From Xylographa opegraphella (Eukaryota), in the NCBI GenBank assembly GCA_022813865.1, contig JALDZX010000039.1, forward strand, positions 1 through 64,000: DNA of 64,000 bases. The letters are read 5' to 3'. Below, in pieces: positions 3,695 through 63,542 of this stretch. The notes under the pieces were generated by a model. That model ran no database searches. It had not been told where the DNA came from and worked only from the letters and a program-made list of their open reading frames with translations. Positions within the stretch are counted from its first letter, which is position 1; each line of letters starts with the position of its first letter. The translations under genes and the position numbers were made by a program.

Positions 3695-5605
3695 ATGGAT
3701 TACTTGCCGAAGTTGGGATCTCTTCCCCCCATGCATGATGTTATTGTTCCGGAGGAAGATCATCGTACCTTCGCGATCTCGCATCCAGACCATCTCAAGC
3801 TCTATGCCTCCCCATTAGCTACTCAGGAGGATATGCACCATGTTGGCCATATTCATGACAACGGTCATGGCGAACCCCACGAACACAATTCTCACCATAA
3901 CCATTCGATCTCTTCGTCAAGCACCGAACATGCCGTGCCAGACATGAAAGACCCCGATGTCCCGATCTTGAAGAGAGCCCATGAAGCTAGCACGATCCAG
4001 TTGTTCTTCGACCTATTCTTCGTGGCCAATCTAACCACCTTTACCTCCCTGCATGAAATCAATACCTGGACGGGTAAGTTCTCCGTACTTTATTCATCCT
4101 CTAGGCGTTTGCAGAACCCAGACTGACACACAATAGACCTCTCGTCATACGTTGGGTACTTCGCGGTAATCTGGTTTACCTGGCTGCAGAATACTTTGTT
4201 TGATGTCCGTTTCAGCAACGATTCAGCCTACGAGCGAATGTGCAAGCTTTTACAATTCGGGGTCATGACTGGCTTTGCAATAACTGGGCCTGGTTACAAC
4301 ACAGCTTGGGCGAATTCCCAGGACGCTGCGAACTCGATATTGGCGTTCAGGGCCTTATCACTGATCTTGATGTCAAGTCGACTCATTCTGACCTTCCAAT
4401 ATGGTGTAGCATTTTTCCTCTTACGGTCCTACAAAAAAGCGTTCGTCCCAATGGCCGCTCACATGGCTGTACTGTTCGCCTCAGCTATGTTGTTTTTAGG
4501 CATGTCTTTTGCCTTCACCCGGACATCGAGCGAAAAGGTACTGATTGGTTGGTATCTCATTGTGGCTGCCGAAGCTCTAGCCATATCTATGATCTCGGGT
4601 CAAGTCAATTTCTTGAGTTTCCGAGCAACAGTCATTGTGGAAAGACTAGGGCTTCTCACTCTCATCGTTCTAGGAGAGGGCATCATTGGTATGTGTGAGG
4701 CTATCAATAAAATCGGATCAGACAACGTCTATTCAGCAGACATAATCGGAACGGTCATCTGCTCAGTCGGCATACTATATTTCATGTGGATGCTGTATTT
4801 CGACCAAATTGCTCCGGACCGGATGGGAACAATTCGAGAGCACATCTGGGTTATACTACATTTCCCATTCCATGTCTGTGTGATCCTAGTTGTTGAAGGT
4901 CTCAGTCGGCTCTCGGTCTGGCGGAAATTGACGGACGTCACGAGTGACTTACAGACTACGTTCACAAATGTACCGCAAAATCTCAAGTCCGAAGACCTGG
5001 TGAATTATATCGACACCACTTTGAATCGGCAGCTCAACAACTTCACGAGCTTTCAAGGCTCTGACATTGGGGCTCCAGACTTCAGTCAATTCTACGATCA
5101 GATACTGCAAGCGGACGGAAACAAAACTGCTATTACGGAAGGTGTCAATGGCACCTTCATAAGCGCTGTTGGCTGGGTTTGCCGGAATCTGAAGGTCGAC
5201 GTTCCAGACAGCAGCTCCGGCAACGAGATCGATTTTGTGAATTCGATATACAGTTCCTTCACCACCGTCTTCATCTATTTCTTCACGTTCGCTGGCTTTG
5301 TCCTTATCCTGCTTGCTGTTCTCTTCCTCCTCGGCAAGCGCCGTAAACTCCGAGGCGAACTCCTCGCAGTGTGTGTTCGAGCCATCTTCGGCATTGCGAT
5401 TTCTCTGTTGGCACTCATGGCTGTTCCTGCTGTAGCCACCAAAGACAACTCGGCGTATAATGCCTACATGTTCAGCGCGTGGATGTTGCCGACCATTCTT
5501 ATCTGCTACCTCACCGTTATCGTTATTGACAACCTCCTTATTCGATATATCCACCAGGTCGTCAAGTGGCGCTCGCATCTGCATATTAAAGGTTATGACG
5601 CTTGA
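3695..5605 (+). CDS. Low temperature requirement A (LtrA)-family multi-pass membrane protein; 2 exons (3695-4073, 4137-5605)
   Basis: Motifs STIQLFFDLFFVANL, FDVRF and ERLGLLTLIVLGEGII, plus many TM segments. Intron 4074-4136 (GTAAGT...CTGAC...TAG) restores the frame. Confidence 0.8.
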
Positions 5606-23800: not shown

Positions 23801-25551
23801 CGAAACAGCTGATCTTCCTGCGCAGTACTATCCACCACAAGTTCAGCGAGATGAGGCGTTGGACAGAGCAGCTGATCTTCCAGCACAGTACTATCCACCA
23901 CAAGTTCGCCGAGATGAGGCGATGATAGCACAAGGCACAGAGTACCAGCTTGAGGGAGTTGGACCTCCTTCAGCGGAGCCTAATGGCAAAGCAAGATCAC
24001 GCAGGAGTTCTCGCAGCTCAGCCTTCTTCAAAAACTTCATCCTGCCCTCAGAAAAAGAGGTTCCTCCGATACCCCACAGCAGCAACGACCCGCAAGCGAC
24101 CGACTCACCGTCTGCCTCTCCTATCAATCCTGCGAAAAAGAAGAAGCGAGCTAGCCTATTTCGTAGCCTCACTGGTCAGACTGGGAGTGATAAGGGTCGC
24201 AGCCGGAATAACTCTCAGGCGTCTCCAGCAACATCTCAACTGAACACACAGCCTCCGGCAAGCTCAAGCTCGCCCGTACGTGAACAGCATCGGTCTTTTA
24301 CAAGCCCAGCACCTAAGCCAAACACTAGCGGTACGCGGAACAAGCTGCAACGCGCTTCAGTATCAGGTGTGCCGGAGCAGGAGGAAGGAAGGAAGAAACG
24401 GTTTTCAGGTTTAGGCGTGAGCAATGTCGAGCGTACTTTTAAGAATTCATGTTAACTGGTTTCAGAATCTCTTTGGCCATTCCAGTCCCAAGCAGCAAAA
24501 GGCGGTAACCTCCAAAACACAGCCAGCTTTCCGCAGAAATTCTTCGCAACAGAATACACCCGTAAATCAGTGGTCTTCGGATATTCAGCACCAGCGTCAC
24601 GAGCCTATGCCACCTACAGGGTATGAATCTGCCTACAATACTAATTATCAAAGCTATCCGCAGCCAGTACCTCCTCCAGGTTATGATATACCGCCTCTCG
24701 AAGGATACTACAGCCCAGACCGAATCAGTGGCTCCTTCTCTCCGGAACTAATCAATGGCCTGCAATCAGCACCAACCATAACGCAAAATCTAGCGCAGTA
24801 TGGAGAGCCGCCGTTACGACATCTGACCGAAAACCACCAACCGCAATATCAGCCACAATCGCCCTGGATCAGAAACTTGATGTCACATAGTCCGACACCA
24901 GATCCGCGTACGTACCCGGGACAATACGTTAGTCGCGAAGCACCAGGTTATCACAACGACTACCGCAACTTCAACAATCATCCTACATCAAATGAGCCAC
25001 GGCTGAATCAACAATACGAAACATCTCACCTTCCAGTTCAATCGTATCGGAGCCAAAACGAAGCTGGTATCGCTACGGTTTCTCCACGCAGTGCTCGTCT
25101 AGTCACTGGGTCCCAAGGATATCACGAAGCTCCGCCTGTGAGATACGACTCGCCCCCTCCACCGCCCCCGCCTCCCAAAGATGATCATCTTCTGCCAGGA
25201 TCCAGATCCCATCATGGACGCTCACTATCACAAATACCGCCACCAACACAGAACTCTCCATCTACGCCGCGCCAAGGAGCGGACCAAAGTCGCCAAAGTC
25301 TTCCTCCGCTTCAAACCAATTTTGGCAAAACACAAGTCGCTAGCGCTAGCGCAAGCACTCCCATGACACCTGAAGATGTACGACGAGCGCGGCGGCAGCA
25401 GATTGAAAGTTCGGGTCGTTCGCCTCGAGCACAGGCACGGAATGATGGCCACGTGTCTCAGCGTGATCCCGATGAGGAAATTGTTATGTCGAGTAGCAGT
25501 TATCCCGGCCAGGAATGGCAACCTAGTTATGGCAACTGGCACGATGATTAA
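17872..25551 (+). CDS. Large Ser/Pro/Gln-rich, probably disordered protein of unknown function (~2,460 aa if spliced: 17872-22167, 22416-24416, 24466-25551)
   Basis: Three long ORFs are joined in phase 0 by introns 22168-22415 (GTAGAT...TGCAG) and 24417-24465 (GTGAGC...TTAAC...CAG). Conserved-looking islands include FKTNVNRAKTKRWVEAKSYSYDGDDWG and MSSSSYPGQEWQP. The first junction is less certain, so this may be two genes. Confidence 0.65.
23790..23921 (+). repeat. Intragenic 63-bp tandem duplication (~2.1 copies; EAVDETADLPAQYYPPQVQRD / EALDRAADLPAQYYPPQVRRD)
   Basis: GAGGCG starts recur at 23790, 23853 and 23916, and the core CAGTACTATCCACCACAAGTTC is repeated. Confidence 0.9.
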
Positions 25552-27658
25552 TTACATCTTGATGACGTCTATATTGGATTTACTGGAGATATTAACGGGG
25601 AATCTAATTGCGATATTTATTGAGCATTTGTATAGAATTTTGTTGATGTATCATCCATTTCATTATCTACGCCTTCCAACGGAATTTTCCTGCCTTATAT
25701 GTACATGGGATTCCGTACCGCAATGTCGAGAATATACCTCACTTACTCGATCACGAGATGTACATATATGAAAGCTTCGTATAATCGTACCTGGGTCGGA
25801 TCACGATACGTTTCGTTGATTGCTTCATTCATGTGAGCATATGTACATATAGATATATATGAGCTTGGTCAATGTACTCAAATCCGTGGTCTCTATCATC
25901 TGATGCAAGTGCGGTCGCAAACAGAACCAGACGACCATGGCTTCACCATCGAACCTTGGCGAAAAGCAGCAGTGCACAATTCGTATCTCCTAAAGAATCT
26001 TCCAACTCTGCTACCATCAGCAGAAAGGATAGCAAAAATTCGACTCCGAGAGCAGTGGCTTGATCACTGCCTTGAGCAGCGCAGAGCTGCAGTGTTTACG
26101 ACGGAAAAATTACTAATTGCGAGGCAAAGGGGGAAAAAATCCCCCCTAAACATCAATGAATCAGAACGGACGCCATGGCGGTACCAAGAATTGGCAATTC
26201 GAGTGTAAAAAATCTCACACACTGAGGCGTCTGGCGCGCGTGGCAGAGAGAATTCCAGAACGATGTAATGTGATTGGTGGTCCATGTGGCTGTGAAAAAG
26301 GCTCAGGTCGAAACAGACAAGCCGTGGGTCATTTAAAGAAAATACCTGGCGCCGGTCAGTCAACGACTGATTCGCTCACGAAGAAAAACGCCAACGCGAT
26401 ACTTCAATTGCCACCCCCGGATGCTGCGGAGCTGCAGTTGTATGAAGTAACTTTTCGATCAGCTGCTGGGCTCAGCCATGGGGCAACAGAAGCGTGATGT
26501 AGAAATGCCCGAAATGACAGAACAGACAAAACAACAGAATTGTCGGCGCTATAATCTATCACAAACAAGCAGCTGTAGCTAAACCAATACAGGAAACGGA
26601 AGATGAGAAGGAAGAAACAGATCGCCATGATGACGACGATGCGAGCGGAGGGAGGCGCCAGTAATGGGGTCAGACCGGATACTGAAGAAGCAGGTGCGGC
26701 TTGTTCATGTATGTTTCTTCTATTTGTACGAGGAAGCTGCCTCCAATGAGAACTTGGTGAAGGAAGCAGACAATCTGGCAGCGTTTGCTTAGCAGACGTT
26801 GGATACATTACTCATAACGATGTAATCGAAGATAGCCAAGCCGGAAGCGTCCTGGGTCCAGACTCGCAATACGCACTAATTTTCTTGCCTGGTTCCTTGC
26901 CCTAGGAATAGAGGCGCGGTATCCATTGCGGCCTCTGTCCGCCACGAACTGCCTCGAGATCTGCTTCTGTGATATCGTAGACCACTATAGCTGACTCCTA
27001 ATCCGATCATAAACCCGTTTGAAGTACGTATGCCGAAGCACGCTATGTTGATAGAGAATTAAGCCTGGAGGGACCTTTCAGTCCAAGAAGCTTTCGTAGA
27101 CTCCCATGGGGTATTCGGTCGACCTATTCAGTTGCTGTAGGCGGCCTTCACTTCCATCTCTTCTGAAGGCCCTGCAGGACGGTCCCTCGGTGTTCAAATT
27201 GCAGGTTATCGAGGGCCCCCTGGTAGACAATGGAGTAAAAATACAAGGAGGCGAGGATGAAAGTGTGCGCAACGTTAGCTGAGGAGAGGCAGTGAAACTC
27301 GGAAGTAATAATGCATACTGTTACACCATAATGCAGCACGTAATGAAAAGACGAAATAGCAGTCTTGCAAAGCAACATCGAGACTTCGTGGTTTAGATAT
27401 AGCACTTCAAGATTGCAGTGTAAAGGTAATCAAATCCGTCTATAATTCTACCTCTTACGACAAACTTGTCACGAATGAACACAGGAATGGGTTCAAAGCA
27501 AATCAAGTAAGATAACAGTCGGCGGTCTTGTTGTAATTATGGGAGTTGATTGATTCGGCAATTTAGTTTAGCGTTATTGAGCTGAGCAGCGACAATATAC
27601 TTTATTCTTGGTAATTAAAAGCTGTCAAATCAAATTATGGTCTTGTGGTCTAGTGGTA

Positions 27659-27708
27659 GTAAGTACTTGACGGCGCCCTCCAGCGGTGAATGTTCTAACA
27701 TATCACAG
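27659..27708 (+). other. Spliceosomal (U2-type)-like 50-nt intron inside the tRNA D-arm, position 21/22
   Basis: 5' GTAAGT, branch CTAAC at 27695-27699 and 3' CAG at 27706-27708. Size and signals match the mRNA introns in this window. Confidence 0.85.
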
Positions 27709-27724
27709 TGATTCTCGCTTAGGG

Positions 27725-27743
27725 CAACACTCTAAGTAACATT
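27725..27743 (+). other. Canonical 19-nt tRNA intron at position 37/38
   Basis: Begins one base 3' of the anticodon. Intron CTCTAAG can pair with CTTAGGG of the anticodon arm, as is usual for endonuclease-spliced introns. Confidence 0.9.
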
Positions 27744-27802
27744 TGCGAGAGGCCCCGGGTTCAAGTCCCGGCAAGACCCATATTGCCTCGCTGGCCTTCT
27801 AG

Positions 27803-27810
27803 TTTTTTTT
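27803..27810 (+). terminator. RNA polymerase III oligo-dT terminator
   Basis: T8 run starting 24 nt downstream of the tRNA discriminator base. Confidence 0.75.
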
Positions 27811-27989
27811 GTGTTTTGTTCCCCATTACTCAGGCTGGCTCGAAGGTACCTGAACTTTTTGCCCGAGTCGTATCGAGGAATGACTGGCCAGTAGGTAGCG
27901 CTAACCCGGAGCGGCTTAGTGCGCCTGCACCTGAAGATCTGCAAAACGGTTCTCGATAGCAGCTCAAACGACCAGCTCTGCAACAGAGC

Positions 27990-28571
27990 ATGGCCCTTCT
28001 CGTACAACCCCTCCGCACCATGGCAAACCCCGACTCGCCCTGTCCCGCGCCTCCCTCCTTCTCTTCATCACGCGCCCCCCCTCCATCGACACTCACCTCC
28101 CCCCGCTCCCTCCGTCAACTCTCCCTCTTCGGTATGGGCTCCGCCTTTTTCGCGCTCTCGATCCTCGTCACCCGCCGCTCGATCGCGCGCCGCCGCCTCG
28201 CCATCTTCCCAGCCTTCTACCACCCCTCGAACCAGCCGCCCAAGCTGACGATCAACGGCCCGCTGGAGGCGGTGGAGGCGCTCGGTCTAGCGACCGTCAA
28301 TGTGCTGAGTTTTGCGATCATGACGGTCGGGGGCACGTTGTGGGCGTTTGATATCGGGGGTATGGAGGAGTTGAGGCGGAAGGTGAGGGGCGGCTTTGGG
28401 AGTGATGGGAGGGGGGTGACGACGCGGGAGGGGGAGGTGGATGGGGAGTTGGAGAGGTTGTGGGCGGGGGTGGTGGATAGGCGGAGGGAAAGGAGGGACG
28501 GGAAGGCGGGTGGTGAAGGGAAGGGGGGTGAGAGAGAGGAGGTGCTTGATGAGAGGGGGAAGGGGCGATGA
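27990..28571 (+). CDS. AIM11: Aim11-like mitochondrial membrane protein
   Basis: RSLRQLSLF...SILVTRRSIARR...PAFYHPSN...LEAVEALGLATVNVLSFAIMTVGGTLWAFDI, with two TM segments. The start may be 27990 or 28020. Confidence 0.75.
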   Translation: MALLVQPLRTMANPDSPCPAPPSFSSSRAPPPSTLTSPRSLRQLSLFGMGSAFFALSILVTRRSIARRRLAIFPAFYHPSNQPPKLTINGPLEAVEALGLATVNVLSFAIMTVGGTLWAFDIGGMEELRRKVRGGFGSDGRGVTTREGEVDGELERLWAGVVDRRRERRDGKAGGEGKGGEREEVLDERGKGR

Positions 28572-28977
28572 GCTTGTGGGGACGATGGGATGGTGAACGA
28601 TAAGGATCCGGCTGTGGAGCTCAATGGGGAAAGTCCACCGCTCGTACTGTGGGCTGCTGTTGGTGGGTGTATGACAGGTGTACAATACTGGAGGGTGGAG
28701 GAGCGAGGAGTTCACGAGACATTCAACCTCGACAAGCATGGGGCAGATAGAGATAGGCGGTCGCGTTGGCATTGCATAGCGGTAGGTTAAGATATCCCCA
28801 TCAGCCATCTTCAAAAACATCTCAAATCTTGGCCGGGTTTCCAGAAGTTCCCGCTTTCCCGCAAAATGTTCCCCAGAATCAACTTACAACATAGGTGAGC
28901 TTCACGTATTTGTAAGCATCCAAGGATGATGACCACCGGTGCCACTGCAGAAGTGTCAACTATCACACCAAGAGTCA

Positions 28978-30024
28978 TCAACGATCCGCAGCATAGGAAG
29001 TGCTCACCAGTCTCGCCGGAACCTTGCAGGGCCAAGCCTCCATATACGGCCACACAGCCTGGAACTCCTCAAGCTCATGTGCCCATGCCATATTTCGCCA
29101 TTCACGGCGCGTCAGCTCGTCGAACTTCTCCCACGAATGTTTCCCCGTGCGGGCCTTCAGAGTAGCCTCCTGTTCTCGCCACACAACACCCAACAGTCCG
29201 GCACGTGTCTTGTACGGGCGATCCCGAGCCATCATTTCCAGCTCTCGATCACCGACAAGTGACGGGGGCAGCATGAAACGGAGATCTGCGGCGCTCAATT
29301 TACCGGCCAGAAGGTTCAGCACGTGCAAGAAGCTGCAGCCCTTGCGAGTGCGGTGGGCACCGGACTCGTAGTAATCCATCCTTACCGGGTCGGGTTCTCG
29401 GGTCCAAGTGGCTATATCGGTGTCGAGGAATGAAACCGTAAGGTGCTGGATCTTGTACCCTTTCAGTTCACGGCAGAGTCTCAGGGCATTTCGCATGATC
29501 TTGGGAAGATCACAGGGGCGATCGGGATGGGGAGCGTAGATCTGGATCCGGAGTTCGTCGAAGCCGACAATTGGACGCATTCGAAGTGAATGCAGGTGCA
29601 GCTTTGTGAGCTCATCGAAGTGCTTGTCTTGCCAGGAAAGTCTGATGATGGGGTGTACCTTCAGGTGCCGGTATTGGTCCAGCATTTCCTCCTGGATCGA
29701 TTTGCAGACAAGTGAGAGGGGGAGAAGGAGTGGTCGAGACCTTCTGGGAAGGATGGTTTCGTGGATCTGAGTAGGTGTAAGCGTGCAATGGTCGACAATG
29801 TAGTAGTTATAAACCATCCAACGAAGCTCGAGAGGGAGTTCCATGAATGGCAATGGCGGCCCTCGGGCAACCATGGGTGTCCTATATGATTTTAGTACAG
29901 TTTGGGATCGTTGAAGCAGAGTCATGTTGCCGCATGAACTGCTGTCTCTGTATGTCTCATGGAATGCCATTGATGACACCAGAGAATGGATCCGTCTGAC
30001 TGGCTGAATTAGTGACTTGGACAT
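28978..30024 (-). CDS. Hypothetical protein with an F-box-like motif
   Basis: 348-aa ORF. FMELPLELRWMVYNY and PLSLVCKSIQEE are typical of fungal F-box-like proteins. The start codon is uncertain. Confidence 0.6.
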   Translation of the reverse strand: MSKSLIQPVRRIHSLVSSMAFHETYRDSSSCGNMTLLQRSQTVLKSYRTPMVARGPPLPFMELPLELRWMVYNYYIVDHCTLTPTQIHETILPRRSRPLLLPLSLVCKSIQEEMLDQYRHLKVHPIIRLSWQDKHFDELTKLHLHSLRMRPIVGFDELRIQIYAPHPDRPCDLPKIMRNALRLCRELKGYKIQHLTVSFLDTDIATWTREPDPVRMDYYESGAHRTRKGCSFLHVLNLLAGKLSAADLRFMLPPSLVGDRELEMMARDRPYKTRAGLLGVVWREQEATLKARTGKHSWEKFDELTRREWRNMAWAHELEEFQAVWPYMEAWPCKVPARLVSTSYAADR

Positions 30025-31279
30025 TGGCTGTGGAGTACCCTATGGAGTTCCTTTGCAAATACTTGAATTCCGGCGAGACTGAACTGCCTCAAAGGCGACA
30101 TAAACCTGGATGGTTGAACAACCAAGTTTGAATCTGAATAAGTCTCGAAATATACGAGTGCAAGAGATGCCTGTAAAGAGATTCTACTTTTCCACGTAAC
30201 GAGATATCGCGGTATTCATGGTTGGATTCCATACCACCACACCTCTACAAGCCAGGAAGGAACATTGGGGTACAGTATCTTGTTTTTTCTGTCAGATCAG
30301 GCAGGCACCGCTAGTACAACATCTTATGATAACGAACTAAGGGAGTATATCACCCTGAAACCATGAACACTGAAAGCGGCGCTCTGCAACCTAGAGCTTG
30401 CATTTTTGTAACAAGTATTCAGTGCTTGCTATAGAATAGCAACATCAGAAGTGACGGAAGAACGCCAAATGTAGCAGAATATAGTGATAATCCAGTTCGG
30501 TGTCTTGCGATAATCATCCTTACCACAGTGGCCCAGAGGCCAAAATATCAAATACCGCAAACGACACTCCAATATTCGTGTCGGTGATTATATATGCTGG
30601 AAGCAATGTTTAGCCTCCAGTCTGTCTCTCTCCTTGATGTGTAGTTATATCAATTCCTTGTCTGTAGGCCCACCATTGACAAATATCGAGGGCCACAATA
30701 TACAACTTTCCACCATTGATTGGGAACAGAATTCTGATATATTTAGAAGGAGAGTTCTGGCGGTGCTTTGAGGTCAACTTGACAGGGTTCGCGTTGCTCG
30801 CTGTACGCTCGGCTGACAATTGAATCATCTGCTGCAAAACTGGATTTCTTAGATGAGGCGATGACTGGGCCAGTTAGAGATGTGCAGATGCCCTATGCGG
30901 TTCAGCTGGATGGGCAAGGCGCGTCATCAAGGTGAGTATGCACTGCCACGGGTGAGACCGAATTGACGTGACATGGGGTGATCTTTCCGCAAATGATCCA
31001 ACAGCAATAACAACTTTGTCCACTCATGATCGTAGAACGAGAACAGAGACAGATCTACTCGGGCACTTGATGTACATAGTGGAGACTCGGATAACGATGG
31101 CTATTAGGGAGGATTGGTAAATATGAGACAGGGCATTGCCAGCTATGTCAGAATGTGCATATAAGAGAAATATCTAGGCAGGCAGGAAGATTAAGTAGGC
31201 AGAAAGACAAGTCCCATGAGAGCATGGGAAGATTTCCCGATATGTCGTAACACTGATTCCATGCTCATCTTGTTGAGAT

Positions 31280-34242: not shown

Positions 34243-35592
34243 ATGACGTTCCCCAAACCTTTGCGCCTTCTAGCAGCTTTTTGTCTTGTTCTGTGTTTTT
34301 TCCTATTGTTCCAATCAATTAGGTCCCCGCCGCAGATTGGCGACAAGTTTGGAAATACACACAAAGCTGATACTAAGGACCTTAACTTTGAGTGTCAGCG
34401 CCCGATTCTTGCTTGTGGTTGTTCTACTGACTCGGCTTCCAGTAACTGGAGAACCAGACGGGGTGCTATGGCGCGCAGACGAATATGCTGCAGACAATCC
34501 GAACTCTCCCCGAATCAATGCGACATTACTTTCGTTAGTGCGCAATTCAGAACTGGATGGTATGATCCAGGCGATGCAAGATCTAGAACGGACATGGAAT
34601 CATAAATTCAACTACCCATGGACATTTTTCAACGATGTCCCCTTTACAGAACAGTTCAAGAAGAAAACGCAAGAGCAGACAAAGGCGAAATGCAATTACG
34701 GTATAGGGCCCTTTTTTGGCAGGTCTAGGACTGTGGCTAAACTATTGTTTTATAGAAGTTATACCTAAAGAGCACTGGGATGTCCCGTCTTGGATAAACG
34801 ACGCCCTCATGGGAGAATCTGCTCGCATGCTCACAGAGCAGGGTACACAATATGCCAACCTCATCTCTTATCACAAGATGTGCCGTTGGAATAGCGGCAT
34901 GTTTTACAAGCATCCCGCGCTTGCCAATACGCGGTACTACTGGCGGGTTGAGCCGAAAGTGCATTTCTTTTGTGATGTCGACTACGACATCTTCCGATAC
35001 ATGCAGGACCACAATAAGACATATGGCTTCACGATCAATCTCTACGATGACCCGGTGTCAATACCAACTCTTTGGCCCGAGACAGAGAAGTTCCTGGCTG
35101 CACATCCAGAGTATCTACACGAGAATAATGCTATGGATTGGGTAACGGATAGTGAGCGGAGACCTGCCCATAATAAGAAGGCGAATGGTTACTCGACGTG
35201 CCATTTCTGGAGTAATTTCGAGATTGCGGATATGGAGTTGTGGCGGAGCCGCGCTTACGAAGACTATTTCAACCATTTGGACCGAGCTGGAGGCTTTTTC
35301 TACGAGAGGTGGGGTGACGCCCCGGTGCACTCAATTGCGTTGGGACTGTTTGAGGATAAGAGCAAGATTCATTGGTCAGTTTGGGAGTACTATTTTGCGA
35401 CACTTACCTAGACTTGCTAACGTGAAGCTTGGTAGGTTCCGAGATATCGGCTACCAGCACATACCGTATTTCAACTGTCCGAATTCGCCAAAATGTAAGG
35501 GTTGTCAGACAGGGCTCTTTACAGATGGCGAGAAGTTTTTGTTTGAAGAAGATTGTCGGCCTAACTGGTTTAAATATGTAGGAATGGGATAA
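34243..35592 (+). CDS. Alpha-1,2-mannosyltransferase, GT15 (KRE2/MNT1/KTR family); 4 exons
   Basis: Type II TM anchor and motifs NATLLSLVRN, YWRVEP, CHFWSNFEI and GGFFYERWGDAPVHS. Introns 34394-34442, 34701-34755 and 35375-35435. Confidence 0.92.
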
Positions 35593-48960: not shown

Positions 48961-51059
48961 ATGCCATCCGCACCATGGTTCTCGGTACCCAAATCAGCCC
49001 TCGCAAGTGTGGAACATCCGTTCATCATTCATAATGTAGCTAAGGCTGTAGATTCGCTCGGAGGTCCTGTGAAGTTAGCGAAGGTTTACTGTCCGAAATC
49101 CAAGAACTATGTAGACTGTGGAAGACTAATGAAGTGCTAGTTAGTTGATGGGTCGACTGCTGATCAGAAGGCATTCTTGTCTTTGCATCCTTGCGATCGT
49201 ATGTCGGCGCCCCTGTCTTCAGGAAATGTACACACCAACAGTATCCTTCTGTGTATCACTGTCCCAAAAAGAACGGGACGCAAAAGAAAGCGCGGATCTG
49301 CAGAAGGCTTCGATGATATGAGCGTATGTGTGAGCGAGCTGGTTCCTGAAGGTTTCGCGGGTGAAGTGTATCAAAGTAGACCCACGTCCCCTGCCAGTAA
49401 TGCGAGCCGTCTATTTCGAAGCCTTACAGATAACACTCAAAATTATGTTGTTGGGACAGTCGGAGTGATTGAGCAGACTCATAGATTTCGTGGTAAGTCT
49501 GCAATGCTGTGGAATTGAGAGGAGATTCTGAACCTTGCACCCAATGTGTACATGCTTGACTTCTCTGTGACTCCTAGGTATGCCGGATTTTGTCTACTCC
49601 ACTGCGAACAACTCCTTCGTACAGAAGACTAGGAATTACATTCTTCCCTTTGATTGTGAGTTTATTCTTAAAAAGCAGGACGCCTTAAAGTTTGACCGTC
49701 ATGATAGATGAAGCATCTAAGAACTTCGCATTGAATATGGACAAAGGCCCGAAAACAAACGAGGAGTTGATCCCGCCGCCTTTCTTTTCCCATCTATCCT
49801 TGCCATTCAACTATACGTAGGATCAGTAATTCCTGACTAAACTGCACTGCTGACTTGCGATACCAGATACCGGCAAAATCCCACTGTCAAACAGACAGTC
49901 GATACTACTGGGAAGCTCAATACAGTAAATACAGCGATCAATCGGAGAGTGGTAGCAGAGCGCGTGCCATTTGACATTGCAACCGTGCCAATTGCACATA
50001 GTCAGACTCTCCCACCTGTTGAGACGCTTGAAACAGATGCCCTCAATCTCCTACGGGAGCTTGAAGGATATATGAATGAGCGGCCCATCTGGACTCGTAG
50101 GGCCCTTACAAACAGAAACAATACACACCTATGGCGGTCCATGATAAGGACTGTCATTCCATATGTGGGATACATGTTCAGATCAGGCCCATGGCGTGAA
50201 GCGATTGTAAAGTATGGTGTCGATCCACGCAACGACCCTCAGTATCGGGTCTTTCAGACAATGACATTTCAATTCGATATCAGAGGCAAGCAGCATAATG
50301 TAAAAGCTGTCGGATCAAAAGAACCGCGTGCCAAAAAGAGCAAAACTGATGGAAATAGCCACATTTTTAACGGCGTCGAAATGCCCACTGATGGCAAGGT
50401 ATGGCAAGTTTGTGACATCAAGGATCCACTGGTACAGAAAATACTGGCGACGACTCATTTGCGCAAAAGATGTCATGTGAGTGCTTCACCCCATACTGTA
50501 GTTGTTCAGTCAGAGTCTCAATTGTTTTCAGATCAGGGCAGATGGATGGTTTCACAATGGGACATGGGCCAAAGCGAGAACCATTATCAAATCAAAGATG
50601 GCCCAGATTCATGCTGGTAAAAGGCCGCCAAACGATGAGGCATTTGCAAAGATGGTCGCTCTTCCAAACATCTTAAGTGAGGATACCAAATCCCTTTTCA
50701 TACTTTCCAAGGATCAAGCGACAAGCCAAGAAATAGAATGGATCGGGCATGTCCGAGCCTCAGCAAGCACGCCGGAGCCTGGGACCGGGGCTCGTATCCA
50801 ACACGTTGACGTTGAAGAACCTGAAGTTCTTGAAGGAGAGAATCTGGCAACCCAAGGGCGCAACTTGTTCGATCCAAGAGTCGAGGCTGCGCTACAGGGT
50901 TTTCAGCAATCGGGGCTGGGAGACATAGACTATGCAGCAGATGCTCTTGTTCGTGGTGATTCCGATGGAGACAATTCGGGTAGTTCTAATGACGAGGACG
51001 ATGATGGCGAAGACCAAGAAGATAATCTAGACGACGATGATCAAGAAGATGGAACTTGA
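48961..51059 (+). CDS. TFC1: RNA polymerase III transcription factor TFIIIC subunit Tfc1/Sfc1 (tau95); 6 exons
   Basis: SVEHPFII...SLGG, HRFRGMPDF, ERPIWTRRAL, YMFRSGPWR...GVDPR and an acidic C-tail. Introns 49084-49140, 49493-49577, 49656-49707, 49817-49866 and 50477-50531. Confidence 0.88.
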
Positions 51060-57800: not shown

Positions 57801-60800
57801 CTCATAAGTATCTTACATTTCATGATTCGTCACCCTGATCTTTTCTACGAGTCTCGAGAACACTTCATATCACTAATGATACCATCCCTGGTAAAGATTG
57901 CCCAGCCACCTAATCCTTCGAATGATAACAAGAAGCTGGTCCTTTGCGTGATTGATTTGATCTGGAAGTGGGAAGAACGAAGGGTCGACGGGAGAAGTCT
58001 TTCCCCTTCACGATTGTCCGAGTCGCCTCAAACTAGTAAAAGACGACTCGACGGTTCTCATCCAGGATCCAATGGCAGCGTATCACTAATTACAGGCTTT
58101 AAGGCTGTTCCAGCTAACGATTATTGTATTCCAGCTCCTTTGAGGACACAGCTTATCAAGTACCTAGCACAGCTTATGAGTACATTTGTCGAGCGATACC
58201 CCGTTCCCGCGGCAAAGCTGAAGGTTTTACTACCCAATGCTTCTCAGGTCACATCGCCTCCAAACGCTATCTGCCGACAAGCTTTCTGTCTCTTCCATGA
58301 CCTTCTTTCAGCGCGTTATTGGACCGACCTCGAAGTGGATCTCTTTCCGAGGATGACCGAGGCGATTTTGGCATCAGAGAGGACAGATAAGACTGATGAG
58401 AAAACAACAACAGCCACTGTCAATACTCTGCAAATAGTGCGGGTAATAGTGGATTCTAAGTCTGACAGTTGGGTCGCGGGACAAATCGCACTGATCCAAA
58501 AGTTACTCGAAAAACCATTACGAATGGAGAATGCCGAAATCCAAGATTGTCTGCACACAAGTGACAGGGATCTGGATAGTGACCGCTTGATCAGGCCGTT
58601 GTTCAAGCGAGTTCTTGACGCGATCCCGCTGACCAGCGGAGGTGGTGATGAAGATGATATGGAAGTTGAAACACCGTCATCCGAGTTTCTGACCTTTCTA
58701 TCCACAGCTGCATCAGAAACAATGTCGGCCGGCAACCATCTCTGCAGCATCAACATACTATGGACGCTGTCGCAAGCAAGGCCCGCAATGGTTGATCAGC
58801 ATATCCCACATCTCATGCGGGTACTCCAGACAAAACTCGCAAAGGAGCACCTCCAGGCGCAAGGAAATATCCCTGGCCAACCCCCAGTACCTCCAATTGC
58901 CCGGCCTGGAGAGCCAACTCCTAAAACACCTGATGCATATGAACTCGAAATTCAAGCCCAATTAATCTTCAAATCCATTGACATCCTGACTTTGCGGATG
59001 GGTATTTTAGGAGAACAACGTCGTCCTTTCCTTAGTATCTTAGCTTCATTGGTGGAACGATCGCAAAACACCACCTTGTGCGATAAAATTCTCAACATGG
59101 TGGAGGTATGGGTGTTCGAGTCGAACGACCTTTTTCCGACTCTGAAAGAAAAGACTGCGGTACTACACAAAATGCTTGCATTCGAGGCTCGCCAAGATAC
59201 GACGCTACTACATAAATTTTTAGACCTTGTCATCCGAATATACGAGGATCCGAAAATTACAAAGACTGAGCTGACTGTCCGCCTTGAACATGCATTCCTT
59301 GTCGGGACAAGGGCTCACGATGTGGAAGTACGGAATCGCTTTATGACCATCTTCGACCGTAGTCTGACACGAAGTGCCACTTCTAGACTTATTTATGTAC
59401 TAACTTCTCAGAATTGGGACACCCTAGCGGAGAGCTTCTGGCTTAGTCAAGCAATTCAACTGGTGATTGGTTCTGTAGAGATGGCTGTACCAGCGCAACT
59501 ACACGCAGAAGATTTCAAAATGATGCAGCCATCTCAACTATTTAGGAATGCTTCAAACGTTCGAAAAGAGTCTCTGATGCTTGACGACAAGTTTGAGGAC
59601 TTTATGGCAAGCCACAAACGCTTCTATCTATCGTTGGGAGATATCAGAACTCGGGATATACTCGAACCGCTATGTCAACTACAGCATACAGATCCAGAGA
59701 TTGCGCAGCAATTGTGGACGGCCTTATTTCCTATCTGCTGGTCTTCTTTGTCACGTGAGGACCGTATGGAACTGGAAAAAGGAATGGTCACTCTACTTAC
59801 AAAGGACTACCATCAGAGGCAAATTGACCGAAGACCTAATGTGATACAAGCACTTCTCGAAGGCGTGGTACGAGCAAAGCCACGCTTCAAATTACCCGCA
59901 CACGTCATGAAGTTTTTGAGCAAAACCTACGATGCCTGGTATACGGCCACAGTATCCTTGGAGCAATCGGCAATCACTCCGATCATTGACACTCCATCTG
60001 TTCGTGAGAGCAACCTCGATGCACTGGTCGAGATTTATGCCGGTCTACAAGAGGATGATCTCTACTATGGTACTTGGCGGCGCCGTTGCAAATTTGTGGA
60101 GACCAATGCCGCTCTTTCATATGAGCAGAACGGTATGTGGGACAAGGCACAACAGCTCTACGAAGCAGCTCAAATCAAGGCAAGAACTGGGGTAGTCCCT
60201 TTCTCGCAAGGCGAATACATGTTGTGGGAAGATCATTGGGTCATCTGCGCACAAAAGCTTCAACAATGGGATATACTAACCGACCTTGCGAAGCACGAGA
60301 ACTTCAACGACTTACTACTGGAGTCGTCATATAGGAGCTATGAGCTGTGGTCTGGTCCTGAAAATCTCGAGGGCATCAACTCTATCATAAAAGCCGTTTC
60401 GGATGCGCCTACACCCCGGCGGACATTCTTCCAGGCGTTCATGTCCTTACTTAAGCTGCATGAACAGCTAGAGACGCCACAGGACTTCCACCGTGTTCAT
60501 GAAGAAGCTATGCAACTTTCTATTCGCAAGTGGCACCAACTTCCCAAGCGTATCACAAATGCACACATACCCATTTTGCAGGGTTTCCAGCAGCTTGTCG
60601 AGCTCCACGATGCTCAAATGATATGTCAAAGCCTGGCATCGACCACGGCGATCAATCTTGACCAAAAGTCTCAGGAGCTGAAATTGCTTCTTGGAACATG
60701 GCGGGACAGATTACCGAATGTGTGGGATGATATCAATGCATGGCAGGACCTGGTGACGTGGAGGCAGCACATTTTCCAACTCATAAATCGTAAATATCTT

Positions 60801-63542
60801 GCCCTTCTTCCGCCACAGGCCGGCAATGCTACCGGCAATTCCTTTGCCTATCGCGGTTACCATGAGACAGCATGGATAATTAATCGGTTTGCCCATGTTG
60901 CACGAAAGCATCAATTACCGGAAGTTTGCATTTCTCAACTTAGCAAGATATATACCTTGCCGAACATTGAAATTCAAGAAGCGTTCTTGAAGTTGAGAGA
61001 ACAGGCGAAGTGTCACTATCAAAATCCAACCGAGCTCAATAGTGGCCTAGACGTCATCAACAATACCAATCTTAACTATTTTGGTCAACAACAAAAGGCT
61101 GAGTTCTTCACATTGAAAGGCATGTTCTTGGCCAAGCTAAATCACAAGGATGAAGCAAACGATGCTTTTGGGACCGCCCTCTATTACGATATTCGCCTCC
61201 CAAAAGCATGGGCAGAGTGGGGATATTACAACGATACTATGTTCAAAGCTGAACCTGACAACATAGAACGAGCAGCAGCAGCGGTAAGCTGCTACTTAGA
61301 GGCCGCAAGTCTCTTCAAGAACGCGAAATCCAGGAAATTGTTGAGCAGAATCTTGTGGCTACTCAGCGTGGATGGACCCGACAATAGGATATCTCAGGCC
61401 TTCGAAGAGTTTAAGGGAGAATCTCCTGTATGGTATTGGATCACCTTTATACCTCAGCTTTTGACATCCCTTTCTCACCGCGAGGCACGTTTGTCCCGGG
61501 CCGTACTTGTCAAGATTGCCAAAATCTATCCACAGGCACTGTATTTCCTTCTTAGAACAAATCGGGAAGATATGTTGGCGATCAAAAAGCAGAATGATCA
61601 GAAGCAGGAGAGACTAGCGAGACAGCAGAAGCAAGCCTCGCCTGCCATTAAGCAAGATAACTTGGAGAATCTTGTCCCAGGCTACAGCCGTAATGGCAGT
61701 ACCTCGAGGCCTGGGACTGCTAATGGCGACACCCCGATGCAGAATGGAGGCGGTACCAGTGGTACAGGCGGCTCTCCCAAACGTGAATCCGATGGTCAAT
61801 CTCAACCGGTGCCAGACGGGGAGGTAGAAAAGCAGCCTTTAGTACCAAAGAAACCTTGGGAATACTCCGAAGAGATCATGTCAGTGCTCAAGACTGCATT
61901 CCCCTTACTTGCTCTTTCCATGGAAACCATGGTGGACCAGATACAGAAGCATTTTAAGTGTCCGCCGGATGAGGACGCGTATAGACTAATTGTTGCACTC
62001 TTGAATGATGGTTTGTCGGTATGTACTGGCTTTCTTATCAGATAATATGTGGTGGCTAACAAAAAGTAGTACATTGGACGTATGCCAGCTGCTTATGCGC
62101 AAGACTTCAAGCTACCTCCCGCAACAGAGGCAAACATTCGAAAATTCGCTGAGACTATACTACCACCACATATACGCAGCTCGTTCGAGGAGGACTTTGT
62201 CGCCAAGAAGCCAACCATGTACGAGTATATTCACAAGCTTCGGAAGTGGAGAGACAAATTCGAAGAAAAGCTTGATCGACGTACACAGCATCACAGTCTT
62301 GAAACTTACAGCCCGCACCTGAGCGAATTCCGGTTCCAAAAGTTTGATGAAGTTGAAGTGCCTGGCCAGTATTTACAACATCGCGACAAAAATCAAGACT
62401 TCGTCAGAATCGAACGCTTTCTACCAGATGTTGATCTTGTCCGGAGTATTGGGTTTTCCCACCGCCGTCTCCGGATTCGTGGTCATGATGGAAGTGTTCA
62501 TCCCTTCGCTATTCAGCACCCAGCTGCACGGCATTGTAGAAGAGAAGAGCGAACCTTGCAGCTGTTCCGCATATTCAACGGAGTGCTTGCCAAGAGGAAA
62601 GAGAGTAGGCGACGAAACCTGAGCTTCTTCTTACCCCTTATGGTCCCATTGGCACCATCTATTCGTTTAGTCCAAGAAGATGCCGAATACATCTCCTTGC
62701 AAGGAGTCTACGAGGATCACTGTAGAAGGCACGGACTCAACAAGGACGAGCCGGTGCTATTCACAATGGAGAAGCTGAGAGCAATGGCAGAGATGAGGAA
62801 TAACGTGGGTCATTCAGCCTCTTACTATGGCAACTCTGTTACTGACTACCACTCGCAGAAGTATCCTGATCAAGCTCATAATTTGCGTATGGAAGCATTC
62901 ACAGCAATACAGGAGAAATGGGTTCCGAGTATCATTGCTCTCGAATACTTCCAGCAGATCTATCCATCATTTGCGGACTTCTGGCTCTTCCGCCGTCAGT
63001 TCTCATATCAATACGCTGCTTTGACGTTCATGACATTCATCATGCACATGAACAACAGGTTCCCTCACAAGATGTCTATCGCCAAAGGTACGGGAAATAT
63101 CTGGGGATCGGAGCTTATACCTGCCATCAACCAAAACAAGCCAATCTTCAGCAACCCGGAGCCTGTACCCTTCCGATTGACGCCCAACATCCAGACCCTG
63201 ATGGGTCCCATCGCTACCGAGGGAATCTATACCTGCGCTATCATGGCGATCGCGAGATGCCTCACCGAGCCAGAGTTCGAGCTTGAGCAGCAGCTAAGCA
63301 TCTTCGTCCGAGACGAGATGATGTTCTGGTTCACGCAGCAGCATCGGAGTGTGCAGGAAGGGCAATTGAGGGAGACGGTGCAACACAACAGTGACCTGAT
63401 TGTACGGCGGGCTACCAGCCTGGCAGAGCCTCCTTCAGCAGGCAATCTACCAGCCAACCAGACCGTCATCGACTTCATCGCCAAAGCGGTGAATCCTATG
63501 TTTCTGGCCCAGAGCGATGCGTTGTGGATGCCATACTTGTAG
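51856..63542 (+). CDS. TRA1: Tra1/TRRAP PIKK-family pseudokinase (SAGA/NuA4 subunit); 5 exons
   Basis: [17 protein letters not shown] and FAT regions, PI3K-like [13 protein letters not shown] and FATC end [12 protein letters not shown]. Introns 51911-51996, 52155-52211, 62019-62069 and 62805-62858. Confidence 0.97.

What the first reader, a model, noticed from the sequence alone, without database searches (positions are those of the whole stretch)
27639..27779. tRNA-Pro(AGG) gene with an apparent spliceosomal intron in its D-arm plus a canonical tRNA intron
Seen in sequence: a 50-nt insert (GTAAGTacttgacggcgccctccagcggtgaatgttCTAACatatcaCAG, 27659-27708) sits exactly between A21 and U22. It has the same donor, branch and acceptor signals and the same size as the mRNA introns nearby. 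Excision at GT...AG, with no base gained or lost, gives GGTCTAGTGGTA|TGATTCTCGCTTAGGG, the conserved eukaryotic tRNA-Pro D-arm/anticodon sequence. A 19-nt intron at 37/38 is also present, and the acceptor, anticodon and T stems pair perfectly, which argues against a decayed pseudogene. Established: nuclear tRNA introns are removed by tRNA splicing endonuclease, while spliceosomal introns are known in some fungal non-mRNA genes (U6 snRNA, rRNA). I do not know of a described case in a tRNA, but could not check the literature. Inference: this pre-tRNA would need both the spliceosome and the tRNA endonuclease, and standard tRNA finders may miss or mis-call such genes.
Basis: partly seen in the sequence, partly recalled or inferred. 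Interest (0 to 1): 0.95.

Follow-up and report, generated by a model that had tools for sequence, protein, structure and literature searches.

The report
Spliceosome-type intron inside fungal tRNA-Pro gene
A proline tRNA gene of a lichen-forming fungus is split in its D-loop by a 50-base insert that has all the marks of an mRNA-type (spliceosomal) intron, relatives in other fungi keep those marks while the rest of the insert has changed freely, and no such intron in a tRNA gene turned up in the literature I could search.

Summary
Observation confirmed. Window 27639-27779 (+) is a tRNA-Pro(AGG) gene. It has a 50-nt insert (27659-27708: GTAAGT...CTAAC...CAG) between tRNA nt 21/22 and a 19-nt canonical 37/38 intron. 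Removing both in silico gives a 72-nt cloverleaf. ARAGORN and Rfam miss or miscall the native gene.

The key evidence is comparative. A metagenome scan demanded only the two exon edges and any 35-65-nt insert. It returned 8 loci, 6 distinct sequences. All 6, and the window, have one GT...AG register, a length of 50-55 nt and a YTRAY branch motif 10-12 nt before the 3' end. Their interiors cannot be aligned. The exons keep a perfect cloverleaf through compensatory changes. No bulge-helix-bulge motif is conserved. mRNA introns in the window are 49-63 nt with the same signals.

The window matches Xylographa opegraphella, a lichen-forming fungus.

Best reading: a real spliceosomal intron in a working tRNA gene, so the pre-tRNA needs both the spliceosome and the tRNA endonuclease. 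No RNA data were available, so splicing is inferred. Ten literature searches found no described case.

The parts
27639..27658 (+). tRNA-Pro(AGG) exon 1: acceptor 5' strand, nt 8-9, D-stem 5' strand and D-loop up to nt 21
   Evidence: ARAGORN cloverleaf after in-silico removal of the inserts
27646..27656 (+). A-box-like internal Pol III promoter element (TGGTCTAGTGG), intact and directly upstream of the insert
   Evidence: Read. The A-box consensus is recalled, not computed.
27659..27708 (+). 50-nt spliceosomal-type intron between tRNA nt 21 and 22
   Evidence: It is single-copy in the window. Its counterparts in L001, L003, L004, L005, L006 and L007 keep GT, the branch motif and AG.
27659..27664 (+). 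5' splice site GTAAGT
   Evidence: Across the 7 distinct genes, GT is present in 7 of 7, A at +3 in 7 of 7 and G at +5 in 6 of 7.
27695..27699 (+). Branch-site motif CTAAC (branch A at 27698, 10 nt before the 3' splice site)
   Evidence: a YTRAY motif with its A 10-12 nt from the 3' end in 7 of 7 distinct genes
27706..27708 (+). 3' splice site CAG
   Evidence: CAG in 6 of 7, TAG in 1 of 7
27709..27724 (+). Exon 2: D-stem 3' strand, nt 26, anticodon stem 5' strand and the anticodon loop up to nt 37 (anticodon AGG)
27725..27743 (+). 19-nt canonical tRNA intron at 37/38 (the tRNA-endonuclease type)
   Evidence: ARAGORN i(38,19). Homologous canonical introns of 14-27 nt occur in the related loci.
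27744..27779 (+). Exon 3: nt 38, anticodon stem 3' strand, variable loop, T-arm, acceptor 3' strand and discriminator C
27758..27768 (+). B-box-like internal Pol III promoter element (GGTTCAAGTCC)
   Evidence: Read. The consensus is recalled.
27803..27810 (+). Run of 8 T, a Pol III terminator-like site 23 nt after the gene
   Evidence: A run of 5 or more T follows the gene in 6 of 6 complete related genes. No run longer than 4 T lies inside any of the 7 introns.

Best explanation
This is a working nuclear tRNA-Pro(AGG) gene of a lichen-forming ascomycete, and its D-loop carries a genuine U2-type spliceosomal intron. The proposed pathway has four steps, all inferred. (1) RNA polymerase III transcribes the gene from its intact A and B boxes to the T8 run, giving a pre-tRNA of about 165-175 nt. 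(2) In the nucleus the spliceosome recognises GTAAGT, the CTAAC branch site and CAG. It removes the 50-nt intron as a lariat and joins nt 21 to nt 22, which lets the D-arm and the L-shaped body form. (3) Only then can the fungal four-subunit tRNA splicing endonuclease act. It measures from the folded body and contacts the D-arm, so it can now cut out the 19-nt 37/38 intron, and tRNA ligase joins the halves. (4) End trimming, CCA addition and base modification proceed as usual. The intron is not private to this genome. Homologous or convergent introns sit at nt 21/22 or 18/19 of tRNA-Pro(AGG) and tRNA-Pro(UGG) genes in at least six other fungal sequences. What is shown is the sequence anatomy, the conservation of signals, the covariation of the exons and the absence of a conserved BHB motif. 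Transcription, excision, the enzyme involved and the order of steps are inferred.
For: (a) Precise in-silico excision at the only GT...AG register restores a 72-nt tRNA-Pro cloverleaf. (b) An unbiased metagenome scan (12 nt of exon, any 35-65 nt, 12 nt of exon) gave 8 loci, which are 6 distinct sequences because L001, L002 and L008 are the same. With the window that makes 7 distinct genes. All 7 have exactly one register that begins GT and ends AG. All 7 introns are 50-55 nt. All 7 have YTRAY with its A 10-12 nt before the 3' end. A is at +3 in 7 of 7 and G at +5 in 6 of 7. The background rate for GT, AG and that branch placement together is 64 of 767,370 windows. (c) The intron interiors cannot be aligned: only GTA.G at the 5' end and CAG at the 3' end reach 5 of 7 in anchored columns. 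The flanks share no similarity with the window. So the signals are held by selection rather than by recent common descent. (d) After removal of both introns, the 6 complete genes pair in 120 of 126 stem cells. The 6 exceptions are all the same U13-U22 position. Of 21 stem pairs, 8 vary, and all 8 vary by compensatory double changes. These are maintained tRNAs, not decaying copies. (e) mRNA introns in the same window have the same size and signals: 49, 55 and 61 nt in the Ktr-like gene framed by homologues, and 49, 51 and 63 nt ORF-joining candidates. (f) No hBHBh' motif fits: the outer exon-exon helix is absent in 30 of 30 register/offset tests. The MFE fold keeps the acceptor and T arms and shows no BHB. 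(g) By the literature, the four-subunit eukaryotic endonuclease removes only 37/38 introns and contacts the D-arm (PMC10485636, passages read). (h) There is a precedent for spliceosomal removal from a Pol III transcript: the sole S. pombe U6 gene (PMC5855946, passages read). (i) The host belongs to Lecanoromycetes. I recall this class as the main source of the rDNA spliceosomal introns of Bhattacharya et al. 2000. That paper was seen only as a citation.
Against: There are no RNA data of any kind, so neither the spliced junction nor a lariat has been observed. The copy number of tRNA-Pro(AGG) in this genome is unknown because no genome is held. Intron-free paralogues could therefore make this copy dispensable. 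Two of the 7 introns (L001, L007) contain a run of 4 T, which might cause some Pol III termination. Some donors are weak (GTAATT in L006, GTAGGC in L001). L003 has a second AG only 4-5 nt after the branch A. A 4-bp helix of the kind found at the centre of a BHB can be drawn in 3 of 30 tests (window, L003, L005). From recall, not checked here: Pol III transcripts carrying mRNA introns are not spliced in mammalian cells, so competence of Pol III pre-tRNA for splicing in these fungi is an assumption beyond the U6 case. Only 8 loci were found in a very large metagenome collection, and how common uninterrupted fungal tRNA-Pro genes are there was not measured.
Confidence: 0.66

Rival explanations
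1. The spliceosome removes the insert, but from a Pol II transcript. The tRNA lies inside a longer capped RNA, for example an upstream transcript or the 5' UTR of the gene that starts near 27960. It is spliced co-transcriptionally and then released by RNase P and RNase Z.
For: Spliceosome recruitment is normally coupled to Pol II. The gene lies about 200 nt upstream of a + strand ORF (27960-28571). The trailer before the T run is fairly long at 23 nt.
Against: The A and B boxes are intact. A run of 5 or more T follows directly in 6 of 6 complete related genes, and none of the 7 introns has more than 4 T in a row. The related loci have unrelated flanks, so no shared host transcript exists. S. 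pombe U6 shows that Pol III transcripts can be spliced.
Confidence: 0.12
2. The insert is a non-canonical tRNA intron cut out by the tRNA splicing endonuclease or another protein endonuclease through a local bulge-helix-bulge-like structure, as in Cyanidioschyzon merolae, nucleomorphs and archaea.
For: Such introns do occur in D-arms and alongside a canonical intron (PMC4090602 and PMC3728597; passages and abstract seen). A central 4-bp helix can be drawn for the window (offset 2) and for L003 and L005 (offset 1).
Against: The outer helix is absent in 30 of 30 tests, and the helix offset is inconsistent between sequences. This model does not explain why GT, a branch motif at a fixed 10-12 nt and YAG are conserved in 7 of 7 genes while everything else drifts. 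The four-subunit endonuclease is reported to remove only 37/38 introns. That fungi have this form of the enzyme is recalled, not computed.
Confidence: 0.06
3. The gene is disabled. The insert is never removed, the locus is a neutral or decaying tRNA pseudogene, and intron-free paralogues supply tRNA-Pro.
For: A 2014 review notes that insertions in D or T arms of eukaryotic tRNA genes are usually taken to be pseudogenes (PMC4090602, passage read). The paralogue content of this genome is unknown. Another organism has an uninterrupted gene (run X3).
Against: Seven distinct genes from unrelated flanks keep perfect stems through compensatory changes, keep terminators and keep the three splice signals. 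A chance insert would meet the signal criteria about 8 times in 100,000.
Confidence: 0.07

Closest known systems
mRNA-type intron of the Schizosaccharomyces pombe U6 snRNA gene (Tani and Ohshima 1989, as described in PMC5855946; passages read)
   Same: A short GT-AG intron lies inside a small non-coding RNA gene that Pol III transcribes from internal A/B-type promoter elements. The review states that the spliceosome removes it.
   Different: The host here is a tRNA. A tRNA is not part of the spliceosome's active site, so the reverse-splicing-by-proximity argument does not apply directly. It coexists with an endonuclease-type intron in the same transcript. Its excision has not been shown experimentally.
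Spliceosomal introns in rDNA of ascomycetes (Bhattacharya et al. 2000; seen only as a citation in PMC5855946 and PMC6652019) and in U1, U2 and U5 snRNA genes of Rhodotorula hasegawae (cited)
   Same: These are spliceosomal-type introns in genes for structural RNAs. From recall, many of the rDNA cases come from lichen-forming fungi, the class the window belongs to.
   Different: Those hosts are Pol I or Pol II transcripts. The 2018 review's list of non-coding RNAs with spliceosomal introns (U6, U2, U5, U1, rRNA) does not include tRNA.
Non-canonical (ectopic, multiple) tRNA introns of Cyanidioschyzon merolae and of cryptophyte and chlorarachniophyte nucleomorphs (PMC3728597 abstract; PMC4090602 passages)
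   Same: These are eukaryotic nuclear-type tRNA genes with an intron in the D-arm in addition to the canonical one.
   Different: Those introns are short (3-24 nt in Guillardia) or defined by a BHB motif, and are attributed to the tRNA endonuclease. Here no BHB fits, and the conserved features are GT, branch motif and AG.
Canonical eukaryotic 37/38 tRNA intron
   Same: The 19-nt intron at 27725-27743 is an ordinary member of this class.
   Different: The 50-nt insert is at 21/22 and does not have this architecture.
Artificial yeast tRNA gene carrying an mRNA intron, reported spliced by the pre-mRNA pathway (Koehrer, Vogel and Domdey, EMBO J 1990). Recalled only: search found nothing and the id tried is not held.
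   Same: If my recollection is right, it shows that a Pol III pre-tRNA can be a spliceosome substrate in a fungus.
   Different: That was an engineered construct. This would be a natural, evolutionarily maintained case.
   Same: The same idea, in a green alga.
   Different: It is a different kingdom, tRNA and genome. It is an unchecked AI note that I did not test.

Membership tests
U2-type (GT-AG) spliceosomal intron | 5' splice site GT with the extended fungal consensus GTRNGT | tested here: met
   The window has GTAAGT. Across the 7 distinct genes, GT is present in 7 of 7, A at +3 in 7 of 7 and G at +5 in 6 of 7. The consensus itself is recalled.
U2-type (GT-AG) spliceosomal intron | Branch-site motif (CTRAY-like) a short, fixed distance upstream of the 3' splice site | tested here: met
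   YTRAY with its A 10-12 nt from the 3' end in 7 of 7. mRNA introns of the window show CTAAC, CTGAC or TTAAC in their 3' parts (intron sequences printed).
U2-type (GT-AG) spliceosomal intron | 3' splice site YAG | tested here: met
   CAG in 6 of 7 and TAG in 1 of 7
U2-type (GT-AG) spliceosomal intron | Length within the host genome's mRNA intron range | tested here: met
   50 nt, against 49, 55 and 61 nt (homology-framed) and 49, 51 and 63 nt (ORF-joining)
U2-type (GT-AG) spliceosomal intron | Signals conserved while the interior is free to vary | tested here: met
U2-type (GT-AG) spliceosomal intron | Excision by the spliceosome through a 2'-5' lariat | not testable with these tools
   No RNA run holds the locus.
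Canonical eukaryotic tRNA intron (four-subunit endonuclease substrate) | Position between nt 37 and 38 | tested here: not met
   The 50-nt insert is at 21/22. The separate 19-nt intron does meet this feature.
BHB-type non-canonical tRNA intron (archaea, C. merolae, nucleomorphs) | Two 3-nt bulges holding the splice sites, separated by a 4-bp helix and flanked by outer helices | tested here: not met
   The outer exon-exon helix is absent in 30 of 30 register/offset tests. The central helix is fully paired in only 3 of 30, at inconsistent offsets. The cut position within the bulge was taken from recall, and both plausible offsets were tried.
Functional nuclear tRNA gene (Pol III type 2) | Cloverleaf with covarying stems | tested here: met
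   After in-silico removal of both introns, 120 of 126 stem cells pair and 8 of 8 variable pairs are compensatory. L004 was left out because it is incomplete. L002 and L008 were left out as duplicates of L001.
Functional nuclear tRNA gene (Pol III type 2) | Intact A and B boxes and a downstream T-run terminator | tested here: met
   Read. Runs of 5 or more T follow 6 of 6 complete genes. The box consensus sequences are recalled.
Functional nuclear tRNA gene (Pol III type 2) | Expression and aminoacylation | not testable with these tools
   No RNA data
Introner-like or mobile intron element | Many near-identical copies in one genome | tested here: inconclusive
   There is one copy in the 64-kb window. 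The rest of the genome is not held.
Group I or group II self-splicing intron | Ribozyme core | tested here: not met
   No Rfam family matched. Fifty nt is far too short for a ribozyme core (established knowledge).

The most novel reading that the evidence does not exclude
Nuclear tRNA-Pro genes across several lineages of filamentous ascomycetes carry a selectively maintained family of spliceosomal introns in the D-loop, at nt 21/22 and 18/19. There are hints of further positions in the T-arm (L004) and near nt 25/26 (run X2). These would be the first natural tRNAs whose maturation needs both the spliceosome and the tRNA endonuclease, in that order. They would be natural Pol III substrates of the spliceosome beyond U6. 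They would also be invisible to standard tRNA annotation, so fungal tRNA gene sets would be systematically incomplete.
Probability: 0.6. Interest if true: 0.9.

Novelty: new variant of a known kind. Interest (0 to 1): 0.85.

Why it matters
[quoted passage not shown] A natural, conserved spliceosomal intron in a tRNA gene would be an exception to that rule.

It would give a second class of Pol III transcript, after fission-yeast U6, that the spliceosome must handle. It would make one small RNA depend on two unrelated splicing systems in a fixed order.

It would also offer a clean case for how spliceosomal introns enter abundant structured RNAs, whether by reverse splicing or by intron sliding. 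The 18/19 and 21/22 positions differ by exactly the triplet GTA that begins every one of these introns.

In practice, tRNA finders miss or mislabel these genes. tRNA repertoires, codon-adaptation analyses and reports of missing tRNAs in fungal and lichen genomes may therefore be wrong.

Tried and rejected
RNA evidence: the look-up of sequencing runs listed 3 runs. Only X1 holds the stretch; it is DNA and possibly the source assembly. No RNA holder was listed. Read laying laid 0 contigs of X1, 2 of X2 and 1 of X3, so it gives nothing on expression.

Whole genome: none is held. Paralogue counts and a genome-wide search for other split tRNAs were therefore impossible.

The contigs behind the metagenome loci could not be searched further.

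The same pattern found 0 loci in the prokaryote genome collection and 0 in viral contigs.

Synteny: tblastx and blastn of window 24000-31000 against the loci found only the tRNA gene itself plus one weak 21-residue hit.

Pfam on 7 flank ORFs of the loci gave nothing useful.

A first pair-count script used a structure string of the wrong length and gave meaningless numbers. It was corrected.

My ORF-joining intron finder is noisy: 39 candidates, many overlapping. I used only a few clear ones, plus the homology-framed Ktr-like introns. One search also lists alternative boundaries for those introns.

Taxonomic placement of L007 rests on one FastTree of 34 chosen sequences without support values and is weak.

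Literature: ten searches found no paper describing a spliceosomal intron in a tRNA gene. Subscription journals are mostly not covered. Canzler et al. 2016 (PMC4829304) is not held. The recalled 1990 EMBO J paper could not be found.

Considered and rejected:
- Group I or II intron: too short, and no Rfam hit.
- Introner: only one copy seen, so inconclusive.
- A 5'-UTR intron of the downstream gene: the related loci have unrelated flanks.
Full report
WHAT IS THERE

- It begins with twenty nucleotides of tRNA 5' sequence: acceptor strand, nt 8-9, D-stem strand and D-loop, ending ...GTGGTA.
- These are followed by 50 nt (27659-27708) that begin GTAAGT, contain CTAAC at 27695-27699 and end CAG.
- Then come 16 nt that finish the D-stem and run through the anticodon AGG to nt 37.
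- Then comes a 19-nt intron (27725-27743).
- Last are 36 nt that complete the anticodon stem, variable loop, T-arm, acceptor strand and discriminator.
- A run of eight T lies at 27803-27810.

In a script, ARAGORN calls the locus tRNA-Pro(agg) with a 19-nt intron at 37/38 once the 50 nt are cut out. It calls a clean 72-nt tRNA-Pro(agg) once both inserts are cut out. The native sequence is forced into a false tRNA-Leu(tag) with a 45-nt intron.

The packaged ARAGORN run finds no tRNA in the whole window. Rfam finds nothing at gathering thresholds in the whole window. Even at E up to 10 on 27400-28000, Rfam returns only a 17-nt T-arm-like hit to an unrelated family and no tRNA hit.

The 50-nt piece occurs once in the window. 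No shifted 50-nt deletion gives the same product, so the GT...AG register is the only one that restores the D-loop.

IS IT MORE THAN CHANCE?

Of 767,370 windows of 50-55 nt taken from both strands of the 64-kb window, 0.38% start GT and end AG. Only 0.008% (64) also have a YTRAY motif with its A 10-12 nt from the end.

THE DECISIVE COMPARISON

I scanned the metagenome contig collection with a pattern that asks only for the 12 exon bases on each side of the insert, with any 35-65 bases between them. The pattern therefore carries no bias towards splice signals.
- It returned 8 loci.
- L001, L002 and L008 are the same sequence, which leaves 6 distinct genes.
- Five are tRNA-Pro(AGG) and one (L006) is tRNA-Pro(UGG).

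Together with the window that makes 7 distinct genes.
- Each of the 7 has exactly one register in which the insert starts GT and ends AG.
- In five (window, L001, L003, L005, L007) the intron lies at nt 21/22.
- In two (L004, L006) it lies three bases upstream, at 18/19.
- The introns are 50-55 nt long.
- A is at +3 in 7 of 7 and G at +5 in 6 of 7.
- A YTRAY motif has its A 10-12 nt before the 3' end in 7 of 7.
- The introns end CAG (6) or TAG (1).

The interiors cannot be aligned. In end-anchored columns only GTA.G and CAG reach 5 of 7. The flanks of the loci show no similarity to the window's flanks.

So the three things a spliceosome reads are held constant while everything else has drifted to saturation.

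The same pattern found nothing in the prokaryotic genome collection or in viral contigs.

ARE THESE LIVE GENES?

After in-silico removal of the D-loop intron, ARAGORN calls tRNA-Pro with a canonical 14-27-nt intron in 6 of 7 genes. The exception is L004, whose 3' part is interrupted and cut by the contig end.

For the 6 complete genes with both introns removed, 120 of 126 stem cells are standard pairs. The six exceptions are all the same U-U position in the D-stem.

Eight of the 21 stem pairs vary, and all eight vary by double, compensatory changes. L002 and L008 were left out as duplicates, and most of the changes come from L001 and L006.

A run of five or more T follows 6 of 6 complete genes. 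No intron has more than four T in a row. This pattern fits maintained Pol III genes and does not fit pseudogenes.

DOES IT LOOK LIKE THE GENOME'S OWN mRNA INTRONS?

Homologues of the Ktr-like mannosyltransferase gene frame three introns in the window. Their best boundaries are 34394-34442 (49 nt), 34701-34755 (55 nt) and 35375-35435 (61 nt). One search also lists alternative boundaries.

ORF-joining candidates include 24417-24465 (49 nt), 62019-62069 (51 nt) and 4074-4136 (63 nt), with CTAAC, CTGAC or TTAAC motifs. The 50-nt insert is a typical intron for this genome.

COULD THE tRNA ENDONUCLEASE DO IT?

I tested every equivalent register of all seven genes, at two cut offsets within the bulge, for the bulge-helix-bulge geometry.
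- The outer exon-exon helix is absent in 30 of 30 tests.
- The central 4-bp helix is complete in only 3 of 30 (window, L003, L005), and at different offsets.
- The MFE fold of the native 141 nt keeps the acceptor and T arms and shows no such motif.

A 2023 review states that the four-subunit eukaryotic enzyme recognises the whole tRNA body, contacts the D-arm, and removes only introns between nt 37 and 38. It also states that eukaryotic tRNAscan settings consider only canonical introns (PMC10485636, passages read). That fungi have the four-subunit form is recalled.

WHO IS THE HOST?

The window encodes ordinary fungal genes, among them GCP5, a Ktr-type mannosyltransferase, a TFIIIC subunit and a large PI3K-related kinase. 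Its GCP5 ORF is 100% identical to a protein that NCBI names as Xylographa opegraphella. Other Xylographa species follow at 63-74%. That genus is a lichen-forming member of Lecanoromycetes (recalled).

A flank ORF of L007 is only about 50% identical to Xylographa pallens. In a single-gene tree it groups with unnamed metagenome proteins outside the Lecanoromycetes cluster (weak).

The intron therefore seems to occur in more than one lineage of filamentous ascomycetes. Another organism in the same study as the probable source run carries an uninterrupted D-arm in its tRNA-Pro gene (run X3).

MECHANISM PROPOSED (ALL STEPS INFERRED)

1. Pol III transcribes from the intact A and B boxes to the T run. 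The intron sits just after the A box and does not disturb it. In the 18/19 variants the intron's first G even completes the box.
2. The spliceosome removes the 50-nt intron in the nucleus.
3. Only then can the D-arm and L-shape form. This is what the endonuclease needs to measure and cut the 37/38 intron, and ligation follows.
4. Usual end processing and modification complete the tRNA.

The precedent for step 2 is the sole U6 gene of S. pombe, a Pol III gene whose intron is removed by the spliceosome (PMC5855946, passages). I also recall, but could not retrieve, a 1990 experiment in which an mRNA intron placed in a yeast tRNA gene was spliced by the mRNA pathway.

WHAT IS KNOWN

- The 2018 U6 review lists non-coding RNAs with spliceosomal introns as U6, U2, U5, U1 and rRNA. 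tRNA is not among them.
- A 2014 review of tRNA introns does not contain the word stem 'spliceosom' at all. It says D- or T-arm insertions in eukaryotic tRNA genes are generally taken for pseudogenes.
- A 2026 review of non-canonical splicing files tRNA splicing as spliceosome-independent.
- Ten full-text searches found no report of a spliceosomal intron in a tRNA gene. Subscription journals are largely outside that library.
I did not test it.

WEAKNESSES

- There are no RNA data.
- The number of tRNA-Pro(AGG) paralogues in this genome is unknown.
- Two introns carry a T4 run.
- Some donors are weak.
- The polymerase is inferred.
- The taxonomic spread rests on a handful of environmental contigs.

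VERDICT

I read it as a new host class for a known kind of element: a spliceosomal intron in a non-coding RNA gene. It is conserved in fungal tRNA-Pro genes and needs RNA-level confirmation.

Noticed in passing
L004 (minus strand; the gene runs to the start of the contig, about positions 1-45): After the D-loop intron, the T-arm 3' strand of this tRNA-Pro(AGG) gene is broken after ...TTCGAATCG by a sequence that starts GTTAGT and runs 37 nt to the contig end. This may be a second spliceosomal-type intron at about nt 62/63. The acceptor side cannot be seen.
   Followed up: partly
Run X2, record 1, laid on window 27713-27762: A 247-nt contig of another organism matches exon 2 from nt 26 onward, the canonical intron and the T-arm. 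The 30 letters before it are not a tRNA 5' half and end in ...TGAC........TAG-like sequence. This hints at an intron at yet another position (about nt 25/26). Only 30 letters were shown and the depth is 4.4.
   Followed up: no
L004 and L006 compared with the window, L001, L003, L005 and L007: The two intron positions (18/19 and 21/22) differ by exactly the exon triplet GTA, which is also the first three bases of every one of these introns. That is what intron sliding, or insertion with a short duplication, would leave.
   Followed up: partly
Window 60445-61656 (-): ARAGORN in intron mode reports a tRNA-Ser(cga) with a 1120-nt 'intron'. It lies inside the long kinase ORF 52212-62045/62070-63542 and is almost certainly spurious.
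   Followed up: no
L001, L002, L003, L005, L007, L008: In intron mode ARAGORN labels the native split tRNA-Pro genes as Phe, Val, Pro or Ser with a fake anticodon-loop intron. Without intron mode it finds none of the 8. Automatic annotations of such loci will be wrong.
   Followed up: yes
Window 49841-50620 (+): This ORF has a TFIIIC tau95-type domain. A Pol III factor gene lying 22 kb from the odd tRNA gene is presumably a coincidence.
   Followed up: no
Window 27650-27658 with 27701-27706: The last exon-1 bases GTGG can pair with TCAC near the intron's 3' end (4 of 4 pairs). This would bring the two splice sites together. The pairing is not conserved in the other genes at the same offset.
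   Followed up: partly
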